Shown here piece after piece: positions 57,608 to 64,000 of a DNA stretch of 64,000 nt. The first letter of the stretch is position 1. Every line of letters begins with the position of its first letter. Both the position numbers and the translations under genes were made by a program. The notes beneath the pieces were generated by a model. That model ran no database searches. It had not been told where the DNA came from and worked only from the letters and a program-made list of their open reading frames with translations. The DNA comes from Escherichia coli (GTDB taxonomy: Bacteria; Pseudomonadota; Gammaproteobacteria; Enterobacterales; Enterobacteriaceae): assembly GCF_003334785.1 (NCBI RefSeq), contig NZ_QOWV01000017.1. One strand, 5' to 3'.

Positions 57608-58165
57608 TTATCCTTCGATAAAAGCCATCCCTGTAAATGTCCGTCGCGGGTTGCCACGTTCAATCTGGTGATGGAACATTCGCCGCTGCGATTTCAGCGC
57701 CGCGCTATTTTCCTGTTGCTGTTGCTCCAGCTTCCAGGCAATCAGCAATCGTGCCAGCCGCTTGTTAGCATGCTGACTACGCTCTGACTGAACCTTCACG
57801 CTAATACCGGATGCCAAATGCGTGGCGCGTACCGCCGAGTCGGTTTTATTGACATGTTGACCGCCCGGCCCCGACGAACGCAGCGTCTCATAACGGATTG
57901 CATCCGATTGTTCCTGCTCATCAGCGGTAAAACGCCCAATGCCCAGAAACCAGTTTTTGCGCCCATGATGAGGCCGATACGGACTCGGACAAATCCACTG
58001 AATAGTGCCACACCAGCTTTCGCTTAATGCCCATGCGTTATCGCCATCGAGAGAAACCAGCGCCGAACGCAGTGTGTCAGAGTAGCGGCCCGTTTCTGTT
58101 TCCAGCACCGTTACCGCGACGTCTTGCCGGGTAAAAACGACCAACAGAGAAGAACGCTGCGCCAA
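57608..58165 (-). CDS. prfH: peptide chain release factor homologue PrfH, probably N-terminally truncated remnant
   Basis: 185-aa ORF containing GGQ motif ([11 protein letters not shown]); its 5' end overlaps an rtcB fragment in a different frame. Confidence 0.6.
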
Positions 58166-58343
58166 TCGGGTAGCCGCGTCCGGGGTGTAAATCTGGCATC
58201 CCCACTACGCGCTGCATGTTGGGTAAATTTGCCGTGGTGTGTAATTGTTGGATCGCTAAACTCTCGATCCACAGGTCATCAGATGCGATGGTAAATACCG
58301 CATCGGATAAGGGACGAATATATTTGCCCATGTACCATTCCAT
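58077..58343 (-). pseudogene. ykfJ: N-terminal fragment of an RtcB-family RNA ligase (ykfJ-like)
   Basis: 88-aa ORF with RtcB-like N-terminus ([19 protein letters not shown]) that then degenerates; overlaps the prfH 5' region. Confidence 0.55.
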
Positions 58344-59110: not shown

Positions 59111-59509
59111 TCAAAAACGCATGCGAAACGCTTCTGCCATTTTCCCAATTTTATGCATTTGGTTGTTATCTCGAGCCAGTTTATGAGGTTCAGGTTTCAG
59201 AATGGCAATGAGCAACCATGCTTGCTCATCAAACGCCCCCTGACAATATACCAAATGCGCTTCGTCATTCGTTCTGCTGAATTGGCGCAACTGTGGCGGA
59301 AATGGATTATTCTCATTTGCCAGATGAATATGAGCAACTCGCTCAAATTTGATTAATGGCCAGGTAAAGGAGTCGTCGTAGAGTGCATCGCGACCAAATA
59401 TATCTGGCAAAACACCGTCACGCTTATAGGAAATAAAATCCGCCGTTAACGCATCAAGTTCCTCTGCTGTAAGTTGCAGGCGAATAAGTTTTGTTTTGAA
59501 TACCCGCAT
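59111..59509 (-). CDS. yafO: ribosome-dependent mRNA interferase toxin YafO
   Basis: 132 aa; 2-bp gap after yafN. Confidence 0.85.
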   Translation of the reverse strand: MRVFKTKLIRLQLTAEELDALTADFISYKRDGVLPDIFGRDALYDDSFTWPLIKFERVAHIHLANENNPFPPQLRQFSRTNDEAHLVYCQGAFDEQAWLLIAILKPEPHKLARDNNQMHKIGKMAEAFRMRF

Positions 59510-59511
59510 CC

Positions 59512-59805
59512 TTATTCCTTAAAGTCATTGAAATCATCATCCGTCATATCATTAAGATATTGTTCAGCGCGGCGTGTAATTTCCTCTAATCTTGCAGCAC
59601 TTGGACGGAAGCGCGCCTTTATGGGCTTTTTCTCCTCTTGTTCAGCAAGCATGTCCATTAACGCTTCGAATGCGCTGGCACTTAAGAGATATCCTGCGGG
59701 GCGATTATTAGAAAGAACCGCAACCGGTTGATCAATAAAGTATTTAGCTGGGTTTTTACGTAACTCAGTGATATTGACCGATTTTTCAGCGAGAATTCGA
59801 TGCAT
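59512..59805 (-). CDS. yafN: antitoxin YafN (Phd/YefM-like)
   Basis: 97 aa, acidic C-terminus. Confidence 0.85.
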   Translation of the reverse strand: MHRILAEKSVNITELRKNPAKYFIDQPVAVLSNNRPAGYLLSASAFEALMDMLAEQEEKKPIKARFRPSAARLEEITRRAEQYLNDMTDDDFNDFKE

Positions 59806-60912: not shown

Positions 60913-60926
60913 TGCTCACCTCTCAA

Positions 60927-60946
60927 CACTGGTAAAGTATACAGTG
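60927..60946 (-). promoter_or_regulatory. LexA (SOS) box of the dinB promoter
   Basis: cactggtaaagtatacagtg on + strand = CACTGTATACTTTACCAGTG on the dinB strand (CTG-N10-CAG), 15 bp upstream of the dinB start. Confidence 0.75.
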
Positions 60947-60982
60947 ATTTCAGGGTTTGAGAAATGCGTAAAGATTCAGCAT

Positions 60983-61873
60983 TTAACGCGTTCGCTGCGA
61001 AAGCACCTGCTGCTTATCCAGCTTTTGCACCAGCGGCTGCACCACTTTATCCCCATGCTGACCAAAGTATTGATACAGCGTATCGGACGCACTTTTGGTC
61101 AGCACCATAATCTCAATGCGCCGGTTGCCCGCGCTTTGCGGATTTTTGGAATCCAGCAGCATCTGGTCCGCCATTGCGCTTACCTGCATCACTTTATCTT
61201 CCGGCATTCCGGCCTCTTCCAGCACCCGACGAGCCGAAAGCGCGCGGTCACCCGAAAGGTTCCAGTTGTTGTAGATATTGTTTTTGTAGGCCATCGCATC
61301 GGTATGCCCGGTAATAATAATTTTATTATCGAGCGAGTCGAACACTGGCGCGAGCTCCACCAGCAGCGTTTTAAAGAACGGCATAATCTTCGCGCTGCCG
61401 CGTTCAAACATATTGCGGTTCTGGTCGTCTTTAATCAGCACGCGTAATCCCTGGGGAACAATCTCCATCTCCAGATTCGCTTCCATATGCGCATCACGGG
61501 CAATGGTGTTGATACTGGTTGCCAGCTCACCAAGCTCGGTGGCGGATTTCTTCTTCAGCAGCGCCGTTTTCTCATTCACATCACGCGCTTTTTTCTCCGT
61601 CTCTTCCGGCACCGCCACGGTGGCAGGTTTTGGCGGATGAGACGGGCTGATTTTATTTAACGGCGACAGCCCACCACCGTTAAAAATCGACTGCCCGTGC
61701 AGCGCGGCGATAATGCTTTCACGCTCGGATTTACTGACGCTGTTGACAATCAACTTTATTGTCGTCACCAAAGGGGCCGAGCGTATTTCCGAGGTTTCTG
61801 CCCGCTTTACCTTAGACGCGATGCCCGGCAAACAGATGGCGATTGACGCCGATCTTAACGCCGGATTGATCAA
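60983..61873 (-). pseudogene. lafU: MotB-like stator protein of the Flag-2 lateral flagellar system, N-terminally truncated
   Basis: ORF has OmpA/MotB-like C-terminal peptidoglycan-binding region but no N-terminal TM helix; its 5' end overlaps the lfhA fragment. Confidence 0.6.
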
Positions 61874-63452
61874 CCAGGCGCAGGCGCAAACCCGGCGTAA
61901 AGATGTTGCCAGCGAGGCCGATTTCTACGGCGCGATGGACGGGGCATCGAAGTTTGTGCGCGGGGACGCCATCGCCGGGATGATGATTCTGGCGATCAAC
62001 CTGATCGGCGGCGTCTGTATCGGGATCTTCAAATACAACCTGAGCGCCGATGCTGCCTTCCAGCAGTATGTGCTGATGACCATCGGCGACGGCCTGGTGG
62101 CGCAGATCCCTTCCCTGCTGCTCTCCACCGCGGCGGCGATTATCGTCACCCGCGTCAGCGACAACGGCGATATCGCCCATGACGTGCGTAACCAGCTGCT
62201 GGCAAGCCCGTCGGTGCTCTACACCGCCACCGGGATTATGTTCGTGCTGGCGGTGGTACCGGGAATGCCGCACCTGCCGTTTTTGCTGTTCAGCGCCCTG
62301 CTTGGTTTTACCGGCTGGCGGATGAGCAAACAGCCGCTGGCGGCGGAGGCGGAAGAGAAAAGCCTCGAAACGCTGACCCGCACCATCACCGAAACCAGCG
62401 AGCAGCAGGTCAGTTGGGAAACCATTCCGCTGATCGAGCCTATCAGTTTAAGCCTCGGTTACAAACTGGTGGCGCTGGTGGACAAAGCACAGGGTAACCC
62501 GCTCACCCAGCGGATTCGCGGCGTGCGGCAGGTGATTTCTGACGGCAACGGCGTGCTGCTGCCGGAGATCCGCATTCGGGAAAACTTCCGCCTTAAGCCC
62601 AGTCAGTACGCCATTTTCATCAACGGCATAAAGGCTGATGAAGCGGATATTCCGGCGGATAAACTGATGGCCCTGCCCTCCAGCGAAACCTACGGCGAGA
62701 TTGACGGCGTGCAGGGGAACGACCCGGCGTACGGGATGCCGGTCACCTGGATCCAGGCGGCGCAGAAAGCGAAGGCGCTGAATATGGGGTATCAGGTGAT
62801 CGACAGCGCCAGCGTGATCGCTACCCATGTAAATAAGATTGTGCGCAGCTATATTCCTGATTTGTTTAACTATGATGATATTACGCAGTTGCATAACCGT
62901 TTATCGTCGACGGCACCGCGTCTGGCGGAAGATTTGAGCGCGGCGCTCAATTACAGCCAGTTGCTGAAAGTGTACCGGGCGCTGCTGACCGAAGGCGTTT
63001 CCCTGCGCGATATCGTCACCATCGCCACCGTGCTGGTCGCCAGTAGCACGGTGACGAAAGATCATATTCTGCTGGCGGCCGATGTGCGCCTGGCATTGCG
63101 GCGCAGCATTACCCATCCGTTCGTTCGCAAGCAGGAGCTGACGGTGTATACGCTGAATAATGAGCTGGAAAATCTGCTGACCAACGTGGTGAATCAGGCG
63201 CAACAGGGCGGGAAAGTGATGCTCGACAGCGTGCCGGTCGATCCGAATATGCTCAACCAGTTCCAGAGTACGATGCCACAGGTGAAAGAGCAGATGAAAG
63301 CGGCGGGGAAAGACCCGGTGCTGCTGGTGCCACCGCAGCTGCGCCCTTTGCTGGCGCGTTATGCAAGGTTGTTTGCGCCGGGGCTGCATGTGCTGTCGTA
63401 TAACGAAGTGCCGGATGAGCTGGAGTTGAAGATTATGGGGGCGTTGATGTAA
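61713..63452 (+). pseudogene. lfhA: FlhA-like flagellar export gate protein of Flag-2, lacking about the first 115 residues
   Basis: ORF aligns with FlhA from GAERI(S/A)EV(S/G)ARF...MPGKQMAIDADLNAG onward; no FHIPEP N-terminal TM region. Confidence 0.65.
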
Positions 63453-63475
63453 GTATCCAGCATTGGTGCACAACT

Positions 63476-63667
63476 GCCGGATGCGGCGTGAACGCCTTAT
63501 CCGTCCTACCGTTCAGGCACAAGTTTGTAGGCATGATAAGACGCGCCAGCGTCGCATCAGGCATCTGCGCATAACTGCCGGATGCGGCATAAACGCCTTA
63601 TCCGGCCTACCGATCCGGCACAAGTTTGTAGGCATGATAAGACGCGCTAGCGTCGCATCAGGCATCT
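63476..63667. repeat. REP array, four units in two inverted pairs
   Basis: tgccggatgcggc(g/a)t(g/a)aacgccttatccg(t/g)cctac at 63476-63510 and 63577-63611; gtaggcatgataagacgcgc(c/t)agcgtcgcatcaggcatc at 63528-63566 and 63629-63667. Confidence 0.85.
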
Positions 63668-63675
63668 GCGCACAA

Positions 63676-64000
63676 TTATGAAATGATACGCTCCCCGGCA
63701 CTAAAATCCGTTACGTCCCCCGCCCAATCGATGGGATATAACCCTCGCGCGACATCGCGATGGAACGTTGAGAATGGCCAATCACTCACTTGCTTTACCC
63801 AACCATGCTTTACTGGATTTATATAAATATAATCAACATGATGCCTATAATCTTTGGTATTGCGGATGGCGTGCTCCCAAAAACGTGGTTGCCAGATATT
63901 TTTCAATCCACAAGCATGGGTAAATTGCTTTTTAATTTCCCGCCAGCGCGAGGAAAAATCATCATCGCCTTCAGGTAATGTCCAGATACAGTGCATATGC
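63676..64000 (-). CDS. rayT: REP-associated tyrosine transposase (RayT/TnpA-REP), 3' part only; 5' end lies beyond the window
   Basis: C-terminal 106+ residues incl. ...HCIWTLPEGDDDFSSRWREIKKQF...; flanked by REP array; HUH motif region truncated by window edge. Confidence 0.75.
   Translation of the reverse strand, partial: HMHCIWTLPEGDDDFSSRWREIKKQFTHACGLKNIWQPRFWEHAIRNTKDYRHHVDYIYINPVKHGWVKQVSDWPFSTFHRDVARGLYPIDWAGDVTDFSAGERIIS

What the first reader, a model, noticed from the sequence alone, without database searches (positions are those of the whole stretch)
60983..63452. Flag-2 lateral flagellar locus deletion scar (lafU fused against lfhA)
An N-terminally truncated MotB-like gene on the minus strand and an N-terminally truncated FlhA-like gene on the plus strand abut at about 61713-61873, where both ORF frames overlap. 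This is the configuration expected after an internal deletion of a large flagellar gene cluster that left only the two outermost genes. The junction sequence near 61700-61765 should contain the recombination point.
Basis: partly seen in the sequence, partly recalled or inferred. Interest (0 to 1): 0.5.

Follow-up and report, generated by a model that had tools for sequence, protein, structure and literature searches.

The report
Flag-2 flagellar cluster deletion scar
This is the well-known scar in E. coli K-12 where a 35-kb second flagellar gene cluster (Flag-2) was deleted, leaving two headless end genes; the scar is ordinary, but the same base-exact junction also occurs in at least four other genera.

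Summary
The window is E. coli K-12 MG1655 (100% identity). Bases 60983-61751 (- strand) are the 3' part of lafU (old name mbhA) and lack codons 1-52. Bases 61749-63452 (+ strand) are the 3' part of lfhA (old name fhiA) and lack codons 1-130.

Compared with an intact Flag-2 locus (strain FDA1077), the two parts join at a shared ATC (61749-61751) and 35,322 bp holding 38 genes are missing. The junction lies in an 11/15 imperfect direct repeat, and both breakpoints sit in hairpin-prone sequence.

The same junction is contiguous in 4086 of 5426 complete E. coli genomes. Interior Flag-2 genes are present in 1281. Ren et al. 2005 and later papers describe this scar.

Beyond the finding, the identical junction also occurs in E. 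albertii, Citrobacter amalonaticus, Kluyvera ascorbata, an Atlantibacter hermannii-type contig and a further Enterobacteriaceae isolate. There it sits on genus-specific flanks that are saturated at synonymous sites, yet the lfhA remnants have no stops or indels (pN/pS 0.04-0.2).

I favour one old deletion whose flanks keep exchanging with intact alleles. Recurrent structure-directed deletion, or functional remnants, are not excluded.

The parts
60983..61751 (-). lafU' (mbhA): 3' remnant of the lateral-flagellar MotB-like stator gene. It holds codons 53-307 plus the stop codon. The transmembrane/plug region (codons 1-52) is missing.
   Evidence: LafU NF005273, profile positions 41-297 of 297; BLASTP against the intact 307-aa LafU; DNA alignment; truncated forms carry only PF00691 OmpA, intact forms also carry PF13677 MotB_plug.
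61749..61751 (.). Deletion junction: an ATC shared by both parental sequences. It is the complement of the last base of lafU codon 52 plus the first two bases of codon 53, and also lfhA codon 131. Sequence to the left is lafU-derived and sequence to the right is lfhA-derived.
   Evidence: three-way alignment with L002 11955-11957 and 47277-47279; identical in 9 of 9 scar alleles sampled; contiguous in 4086 of 5426 genomes.
61749..63452 (+). lfhA' (fhiA): 3' remnant of the lateral-flagellar FlhA export-gate gene. It holds codons 131-697 plus the stop codon. The first 130 codons (N-terminal transmembrane helices) are missing.
   Evidence: FlhA TIGR01398, profile positions 114-677 of 678, below cut-off; 99% identity to residues 131-697 of the intact 697-aa protein; RefSeq: pseudogene, missing N-terminus.
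61740..61754 (+). Chimeric copy of the imperfect direct repeat. The parental copies are CTGTTGACAATCCAC (lafU side) and CTGATGATCATCAAC (lfhA side), which match at 11 of 15 positions.
   Evidence: the BLAST pieces from intact genomes overlap over query positions 41-55; (simulation: P about 0.002 for a random junction).
61735..61746 (+). Retained left arm (TGACGCTGTTGA) of a hairpin-capable inverted repeat in intact lafU. The right arm (TCCACAGCGTCA) was deleted apart from its first two bases. The breakpoint lies at the loop/right-arm boundary.
   Evidence: L003 2941-2952 / 2956-2967; 9-bp perfect arms with a 9-nt spacer, or 12-nt arms at 92% complementarity; only 2.7% of lafU positions lie in such a repeat.
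60983..61768 (-). RefSeq/PGAP 'lafU' CDS (261 aa). Its GTG start and first 6 codons (V/M-TTIKL) are the antisense of lfhA codons 131-136, so the annotated N-terminus is an artefact of the junction.
   Evidence: L001 3001-3786; P0001 begins MTTIKLIVNS....

Best explanation
This is the Flag-2 deletion scar of E. coli K-12.

Shown:
- An ancestral lateral-flagellar cluster lay between dinB and the yafL/rayT region. It ran lafU...lafA...lfg...lfi...lfhBA, about 40 genes in all.
- One deletion removed everything from lafU codon 52 to lfhA codon 130. Against strain FDA1077 that is 35,322 bp.
- The deletion left two divergent, 5'-truncated gene ends.

Inferred for the deletion event:
- It was an illegitimate, RecA-independent event between a short imperfect direct repeat (3-bp perfect ATC core, 11/15 overall).
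- It was probably helped by secondary structure. One breakpoint lies at the apex of a 9-12-bp inverted repeat in lafU. The other lies inside a 12-bp palindrome in lfhA.

Inferred for K-12 today:
- The remnants are non-functional. LafU' has lost its membrane anchor and plug, LfhA' has lost about 130 N-terminal residues, and the cluster's own promoters are gone.

Inferred for origin and spread:
- The junction arose once. The same base-exact junction is found in 98.6% of E. coli genomes that lack the interior Flag-2 genes, and in five other taxa.
- It has persisted alongside intact alleles.
- On each side of the junction, the remnant keeps exchanging sequence with intact conspecific alleles by homologous recombination. 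Homology stops at the junction. That is why the remnants still look like live genes and why left and right haplotypes are shuffled.
For: Identity and anatomy:
- 100% identity to K-12, with RefSeq annotation of lafU and an FlhA pseudogene.
- Intact reference locus and breakpoints.
- Truncation of both proteins.

Population data:
- The 101-nt junction is contiguous in 4086 of 5426 complete E. coli genomes.
- The interior genes lfiF-lfiI are present in 1281 of 5426.
- All 9 sampled scar alleles from diverse strains share the junction.

Repeat and structure:
- An 11/15 repeat occurs at about 0.2% of random junctions. However, 513 other register pairs between the two genes are as good or better, so simple microhomology gives no reason for recurrence at this one spot.
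- Hairpin and palindrome at the breakpoints.

Exchange with intact alleles:
- On the lfhA side, K-12 differs from intact FDA1077 at 1 of 1704 bases.
- On the lafU side, scar strain 126 differs from FDA1077 at 1 of 769 bases.
- Left and right haplotype blocks are shuffled, with the block boundary at the junction.

Signs of decay expected of pseudogenes:
- 10-bp duplication frameshift in NCTC122.
- 22-bp deletion in E. albertii.
- Internal in-frame deletions in some LafU' proteins.
- Private variants in lfhA': 11 nonsynonymous to 44 synonymous in scar alleles, against 2 to 39 in intact alleles.

Literature: PMC3032704, PMC6993521 and PMC11420993. From memory, Ren et al. 2005, J Bacteriol 187:1430.
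Against: - The remnants are far better preserved than expected for long-dead pseudogenes. Among E. coli scar alleles pN/pS is 0.040 for lfhA' and 0.066 for lafU', the same as among intact alleles.
- Scar alleles of different genera are saturated at synonymous sites (pS 0.54-0.70), yet have no stop or indel in 563 codons.
- No scar-specific substitution is seen near the junction in E. coli. The 75 bp around it are invariant in both allele classes.
- A single origin therefore needs either a very old polymorphism kept in several genera or inter-genus transfer of the scar. It also needs frequent flank conversion running right up to the junction.
- My rough estimate of E. coli recombination rates makes this only marginally sufficient. 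That estimate is inference, not a computation.
Confidence: 0.9

Rival explanations
1. Recurrent, structure-directed deletion. The junction is a true hotspot. Hairpin or palindrome formation at both sites, for example followed by cleavage and end-joining or by template switching, produces the same deletion again and again, independently in each species and lineage.
For: - The identical junction sits on genus-specific flanks in six taxa.
- Scar alleles are almost identical to conspecific intact alleles right up to the junction. E. coli strain 126 matches FDA1077 for 340 bp to the left and 377 bp to the right. The K. ascorbata scar differs from conspecific intact lafU by about 1.4%.
- pN/pS is as low as in live genes, as expected if every scar is young.
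- Both breakpoints lie in hairpin-prone sequence, with a joint chance of roughly 0.002.
- There are essentially no intermediate forms in E. coli (PMC5422975).
Against: - Perfect microhomology is only 3 bp, and only 2 bp in Citrobacter and Atlantibacter.
- 513 other register pairs between the two genes are at least as good.
- The two sites are 35 kb apart.
- The lafU inverted repeat is only partly conserved in other genera, with 6-8 of 8 arm bases matching.
- No recombinase is conserved at the locus.
- K-12 resembles FDA1077 on one side only (1 difference against 15). That pattern needs recombination at the junction in any case.
Confidence: 0.1
2. The remnants are kept by selection because they still do something. 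Examples would be a soluble LfhA cytoplasmic domain, a LafU OmpA-like domain, or a role as homology arms that allow re-acquisition of the cluster. The scar would then be an old, functional allele rather than debris.
For: - Open frames of about 563 and 255 codons are retained in scar alleles of five genera despite saturated synonymous divergence.
- pN/pS is 0.04-0.2.
- Intact and scar forms both sit at intermediate frequency. About 24% of E. coli genomes are intact and about 25% of E. albertii genomes (PMC11420993).
Against: - Both products lack their membrane-targeting N-termini.
- No dedicated promoter is evident. Only weak 9/12 consensus matches were found.
- Frameshifts and internal deletions occur in several natural alleles.
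- Recent private changes in scar alleles are enriched for amino-acid changes.
- The mbhA locus appears, alongside 'pseudogene', in several E. coli metabolic-engineering papers (listing; papers not read).
- Near-identity of scar and intact alleles within species shows that gene flow, not independent constraint, shapes them.
Confidence: 0.07
3. This is not a deletion. Either the short lafU'/lfhA' arrangement is the ancestral empty site and Flag-2 inserts there as a mobile island, or the locus is split and the missing genes lie elsewhere in the genome.
For: The all-or-none distribution and the identical boundaries across genera superficially resemble an island with fixed attachment sites.
Against: - The 'empty site' consists of two gene fragments whose missing 5' parts lie inside the cluster.
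- No integrase and no long att repeats are present. The shared core is only 2-3 bp.
- K-12 records show a single place for these sequences. No other Flag-2 gene is in the window.
- The literature states that only the two remnants are left in K-12 (PMC3032704).
Confidence: 0.01

Closest known systems
Flag-2 deletion scar fhiA-mbhA (lfhA'-lafU') of E. coli K-12, Shigella and most E. coli (Ren, Beatson, Parkhill and Pallen 2005, J Bacteriol 187:1430; cited in PMC6993521, PMC3032704 and PMC11420993)
   Same: It is the same object. The strain is K-12 (100% identity). The two truncated divergent genes sit between dinB and rayT/yafL. The cluster is absent and there are direct repeats at the deletion ends.
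   Different: Nothing differs for the window itself.
- Base-exact breakpoints against a phylogroup-A-like intact locus (FDA1077).
- Counts in 5426 complete genomes.
- Hairpin context at both breakpoints.
- The same junction in Citrobacter, Kluyvera, Atlantibacter and a further Enterobacteriaceae isolate.
En bloc lfhA-lafU deletions across Enterobacterales (De Maayer et al. 2020, PMC6993521)
   Same: That paper reports truncated lfhA and lafU copies in 531 of 4028 strains, mainly in taxa that also hold intact flag-2 loci. [quoted passage not shown]
   Different: In the text I read, the paper does not say whether the junction is the same in different genera and does not analyse the evolution of the remnants. 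Here the junction is shown to be identical at base level in six taxa.
Deletions between short direct repeats stimulated by palindromes or quasi-palindromes in E. coli
   Same: Breakpoints lie at a short direct repeat and coincide with hairpin-capable sequence on both sides.
   Different: The classical cases span tens to hundreds of bases and use repeats of 5 bp or more. This deletion spans 35 kb with a 2-3-bp perfect core, so the analogy is mechanistic only.
Neighbouring prfH'/rtcB' (ykfJ) scar in K-12
   Same: It is a second internal deletion in the same window, which likewise leaves two truncated gene ends joined at a short imperfect repeat.
   Different: It removes about 1 kb inside a two-gene operon, and the two genes lie on the same strand. 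I did not examine its population distribution.

Membership tests
Flag-2 (lateral flagellar) locus remnant, lafU'/lfhA' scar | One gene end is an orthologue of LafU, the MotB-like stator protein of Flag-2, and not of the flag-1 MotB. | tested here: met
   the LafU equivalog NF005273 scores 476.6 bits (cut-off 383), while MotB NF006548 scores 156 bits (cut-off 277); near-identity (about 98%) to intact E. coli LafU over residues 53-307.
Flag-2 (lateral flagellar) locus remnant, lafU'/lfhA' scar | The other gene end is an orthologue of LfhA, the Flag-2 FlhA. | tested here: met
   567 of 573 residues identical to residues 125-697 of the FlhA encoded at the end of the intact Flag-2 cluster (L002 46887-48980); the FlhA profile is matched from position 114 only.
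Flag-2 (lateral flagellar) locus remnant, lafU'/lfhA' scar | Both genes are 5'-truncated and abut head to head, and the cluster between them is absent. | tested here: met
   the window matches L003 1-2960 and 38268-40226 only, so 35,322 bp are missing; 52 and 130 N-terminal residues are lost.
Flag-2 (lateral flagellar) locus remnant, lafU'/lfhA' scar | The chromosomal position is the same as that of intact Flag-2, next to dinB. | tested here: met
   dinB flanks lafU in both scar and intact genomes. The lfhA side is variable (rayT, hicAB or prophage genes).
Flag-2 (lateral flagellar) locus remnant, lafU'/lfhA' scar | The missing Flag-2 genes are absent from the rest of the genome. | tested here: inconclusive
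   Only 64 kb of the genome is in hand. The window holds no other Flag-2 gene. K-12 records show one place for the query. Scar (4086) and interior (1281) counts are near-complementary. The literature states absence (PMC3032704). The K-12 chromosome was not scanned directly.
Site-specific excision element (island with att sites and a recombinase) | A dedicated recombinase gene and att repeats of at least 6-8 bp at both ends. | tested here: not met
   No integrase or recombinase is conserved in or beside the cluster in five intact E. coli loci. Recombinase genes near two loci are strain-specific insertions. The shared core is 2-3 bp.
Functional gene (lafU' or lfhA' as live genes) | Complete domain architecture with membrane-targeting N-terminus, plus evidence of expression. 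| tested here: not met
   The MotB_plug/TM region is absent from truncated LafU (Pfam column). The FlhA profile is matched from position 114 and scores below cut-off. Only weak promoter-like matches were found. Expression was not testable here.

The most novel reading that the evidence does not exclude
The Flag-2 scar may not be a one-off accident of E. coli history. It may be a base-exact deletion allele that recurs independently, or is actively maintained, across at least five genera (Escherichia, Citrobacter, Kluyvera, Atlantibacter and a further Enterobacteriaceae isolate).

Two readings remain open:
- A structure-directed mechanism at the two hairpin-prone sites repeatedly excises the 35-kb cluster at the same nucleotides.
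- The two remnants are preserved by selection, either for a function of their own or as landing pads for re-acquiring the cluster. That would explain why they evolve like live genes (pN/pS 0.04-0.2, no stops in about 563 codons) despite saturated synonymous divergence.
Probability: 0.17. Interest if true: 0.7.

Novelty: already known. Interest (0 to 1): 0.3.

Why it matters
For the window itself it matters little. This is the textbook example of reductive evolution in K-12: two pseudogenes that mark the loss of a second flagellar system. The annotation caveat is practical. RefSeq still lists lafU as an intact 261-aa protein whose first six codons are antisense lfhA.

The wider pattern could matter more. 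One nucleotide-exact deletion junction is shared by several genera. It sits at intermediate frequency next to intact alleles, and its remnants show live-gene substitution patterns.

- If it reflects gene flow, it is a clean natural system for measuring how far homologous exchange between presence and absence alleles can keep dead DNA looking alive. It would also warn against reading low dN/dS as evidence of function.
- If it reflects a recurrent structure-directed deletion, it would be an unusually long-range and precise deletion hotspot.

Tried and rejected
- Split locus or full-length genes. Rejected.
- Single recent deletion that swept E. coli. Rejected. Scar alleles carry many different haplotypes within 10-80 bp of the junction, and these are shared with intact alleles.
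- Scar alleles as a separate clade from intact alleles. Rejected.
- Simple microhomology hotspot. Not supported, because 513 other register pairs between the two genes score 11/15 or better and the best scores 13/15.
It gave only E. albertii (scar) and two Citrobacter loci (intact), so it did not settle the Citrobacter question. The LafU' protein search plus contig look-ups did.
- Ren et al. 2005 (PMC545627) is not held in the library. Its content is cited second-hand and from memory.
- Loci fetched in parallel calls were not copied to the script machine. I worked around this through DNA alignment.
- The promoter scan gave only weak 9/12 matches and is not informative.
- I did not pursue the 17 plasmid matches, or the roughly 59 E. 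coli genomes that have neither the scar junction nor interior genes.
Full report
**What is there**

The window is E. coli K-12 MG1655. Bases 60983-63452 are 100% identical to several K-12 records. In window orientation the RefSeq annotation of that stretch reads prfH', rtcB', yafP, yafO, yafN, dinB, lafU, an FlhA pseudogene ('incomplete, missing N-terminus'), then rayT and yafL.

One is 60983..61873 on the minus strand (296 aa). The other is 61713..63452 on the plus strand (579 aa).

Both are truncated:
- The minus ORF matches the LafU equivalog above its cut-off, but only from profile position 41.
- The plus ORF matches FlhA from profile position 114 and scores below the cut-off.
- BLASTP against the intact proteins of strain FDA1077 places homology from LafU residue 53 and LfhA residue 131.

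Each frame runs on, by chance, into the antisense of the other gene.

**Breakpoints**

An intact Flag-2 locus was taken from NZ_CP068155.1 (strain FDA1077; L002/L003). There, lafU (307 codons) and lfhA (697 codons) are the outermost genes of a 40-gene flagellar cluster next to dinB.

A three-way alignment gives these three sequences:
- lafU side: ...GCTGTTGACAATC|CACAGCG...
- lfhA side: ...CTGATGATCATC|AACTTTATT...
- K-12: ...GCTGTTGACAATCAACTTTATT...

The shared ATC is window 61749-61751, and 35,322 bp are missing. BLAST of the whole intact locus against the window finds only the two ends, plus scattered REP elements.

The junction lies in an 11/15 imperfect direct repeat. Only about 0.2% of random lafU x lfhA junctions do as well. 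However, 513 other register pairs between the two genes are as good or better.

Both breakpoints sit in hairpin-prone DNA:
- In lafU the breakpoint is at the apex of an inverted repeat, TGACGCTGT-N9-ACAGCGTCA. Only 2.7% of lafU positions lie in such a repeat.
- In lfhA the breakpoint is inside the 12-bp palindrome TGATGATCATCA. About 6.9% of lfhA positions lie in a repeat of that quality.

**Frequency and what is already known**

A 101-nt probe across the junction is contiguous in 4086 of 5426 complete E. coli genomes. Interior genes (lfiF-lfiI) are present in 1281. About 59 genomes have neither.

All nine scar alleles sampled share the junction exactly. They are K-12, HS, O157:H7, UTI89 and five others.

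This is the scar described by Ren et al. 2005. That paper is not held in the library, so it is cited through three others:
- PMC6993521: the deletion lies within lfhA and lafU, has direct repeats at its ends, and all 76 of 100 E. coli strains without flag-2 carry the truncated copies.
- PMC11420993: the same 2.5-kb remnant occurs in Flag-2-negative E. albertii.

The finding is therefore correct and already known.

**What I did not expect, within E. coli**

The flanks do not sort by allele state.
- On the lfhA side, K-12 differs from intact FDA1077 at 1 of 1704 bases.
- HS differs from intact O111 at 8 bases, and UTI89 from intact SCU-484 at 19.
- On the lafU side, scar strain 126 differs from FDA1077 at 1 of 769 bases.
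- Left and right haplotype blocks occur in many combinations, and the block boundary lies at the junction.
- The 75 bp around the junction are invariant in both allele classes.
- The first SNP lies 9 bp to the right of the junction and already occurs in all four combinations with allele state.

Pooled Nei-Gojobori pN/pS among scar alleles is 0.040 for lfhA' (pS 0.165) and 0.066 for lafU'. Among intact alleles the values are 0.037 and 0.060. No scar allele has a stop codon.

Some relaxation of constraint is visible:
- Private variants in lfhA' are 11 nonsynonymous to 44 synonymous in scar alleles, against 2 to 39 in intact alleles.
- NCTC122 carries a 10-bp duplication, VG888 an in-frame 6-bp deletion, and some LafU' proteins have internal deletions.

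**What I did not expect, across genera**

The E. albertii type strain has the same junction. Its lfhA' also carries a 22-bp frameshift deletion, and against K-12 its pN/pS is 0.053.

A protein search with LafU' found truncated LafU proteins with the OmpA domain only. They come from Citrobacter gillenii, C. amalonaticus, Citrobacter sp., Kluyvera ascorbata, Kluyvera sp., Atlantibacter hermannii, Atlantibacter sp. and 'Enterobacteriaceae bacterium H11S18'. Every one whose N-terminus is visible begins ...TTIKL|IVNSVSK. The peptide TTIKL is the antisense translation of lfhA codons 131-136. Intact LafU reads ...FMTLW|IVNSVSK at the same place.

The DNA of four of these loci confirms the identical junction: antisense lfhA codon 131 followed by lafU codon 53. 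It sits on genus-specific flanks and in the same yafL - lfhA' - lafU' context.

Three further points stand out:
- Where lfhA codon 131 is ATT (C. amalonaticus and the A. hermannii-type contig), the microhomology is only 2 bp.
- The lfhA remnants of these taxa are colinear over 1704 nt with no stop or indel. They are 82-92% identical to E. coli at the protein level, while synonymous sites are saturated (pS 0.54-0.70).
- Scar-scar pairs are as conserved as intact-intact pairs. The K. ascorbata scar lafU' differs by only about 1.4% from a conspecific intact lafU.

In the papers I could search and read, I found no statement that the junction is the same in different genera.

**Interpretation**

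A nucleotide-exact junction with 2-3 bp of microhomology, when hundreds of equally good alternatives exist, argues for a single origin.

On that reading the cross-genus spread is either an old polymorphism or rare inter-genus transfer. The live-gene look of the remnants comes from homologous exchange with intact alleles on each side separately. Homology ends at the junction, so conversion tracts stop there. That fits three observations:
- The haplotype block boundary at the junction.
- The one-sided near-identities of K-12 and strain 126 to FDA1077.
- The intermediate frequency of intact alleles, about 24% in E. coli and about 25% in E. albertii (PMC11420993).

This is inference. My back-of-envelope recombination rates make it only marginally sufficient.

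Two alternatives remain open. One is a recurrent, structure-directed deletion at the two hairpin sites. The other is selection on the remnants. I give these about 0.10 and 0.07.

For K-12 itself the remnants are best regarded as dead:
- Both have lost their membrane-targeting N-termini.
- No convincing promoter is present.
- The 261-aa 'LafU' in RefSeq starts inside antisense lfhA.

**Verdict**

Novelty is 'already known'. Interest is low for the scar as such. I raise it modestly because of the unexplained trans-genus identity of the junction and the preservation of the remnants.

Noticed in passing
window 57608-58343 (junction near 58125-58135): A second deletion scar lies 2.8 kb away. K-12 has prfH' (missing its N-terminus) joined to an RtcB-family gene fragment (missing its C-terminus). 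Intact rtcB-prfH is present in O111:H8, SCU-484 and AVS0578. About 1 kb is missing. The joint lies at an imperfect repeat, TGCCGGGTA on one side and TGCCGGATA on the other.
   Followed up: partly
window 63460-63680 and 63676-63996; also 4490-4680: Two tandem REP-containing units of about 115 bp lie directly downstream of lfhA', next to rayT (the REP-associated tyrosine transposase, cut by the window end). Similar REP units occur near window 4490-4680 and in several intergenic gaps inside intact Flag-2 clusters. The lfhA-distal flank is highly variable between strains: rayT, hicAB or prophage tail/invertase genes.
   Followed up: partly
window 60983-61768 (RefSeq lafU CDS): PGAP annotates the truncated lafU as a normal 261-aa protein (WP_000207552), not as a pseudogene. 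The neighbouring lfhA remnant is flagged as a pseudogene. The annotated GTG start and first six codons are antisense lfhA.
   Followed up: yes
L012, L014, L015 versus window 59111-59805: The yafN-yafO toxin-antitoxin pair between dinB and yafP is present in K-12, FDA1077 and SCU-484. It is absent in APEC37, O111:H8 and AVS0578, where dinB overlaps yafP directly. This is another presence/absence polymorphism in the same few kb.
   Followed up: no
L013 4140-9556 (E. coli SCU-484): In one intact-Flag-2 strain, about 5.5 kb holding recombinase-family genes and phage remnants is inserted between dinB and lafU. Several interior Flag-2 genes in that strain (fliI, fliJ) are frameshifted. FDA1077 and O111:H8 also carry single pseudogenes inside the cluster.
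   Followed up: no
(E. coli genome search summaries): Seventeen matches to the lafU'/lfhA' segment lie on records typed as plasmids. About 59 complete E. coli genomes have neither the canonical junction nor the interior Flag-2 genes. One protein (P0013, 429 aa) is a different fusion of a FliK-like N-terminus to the LafU C-terminus, which points to a distinct internal deletion.
   Followed up: no
window 60913-60982: The lafU'-dinB intergenic region contains the sequence CACTGTATACTTTACCAGTG on the minus strand (about 60926-60945). It looks like the LexA box of dinB (from memory). The region is almost invariant across all 14 E. coli alleles aligned. Any engineered deletion of the scar should spare it.
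   Followed up: no
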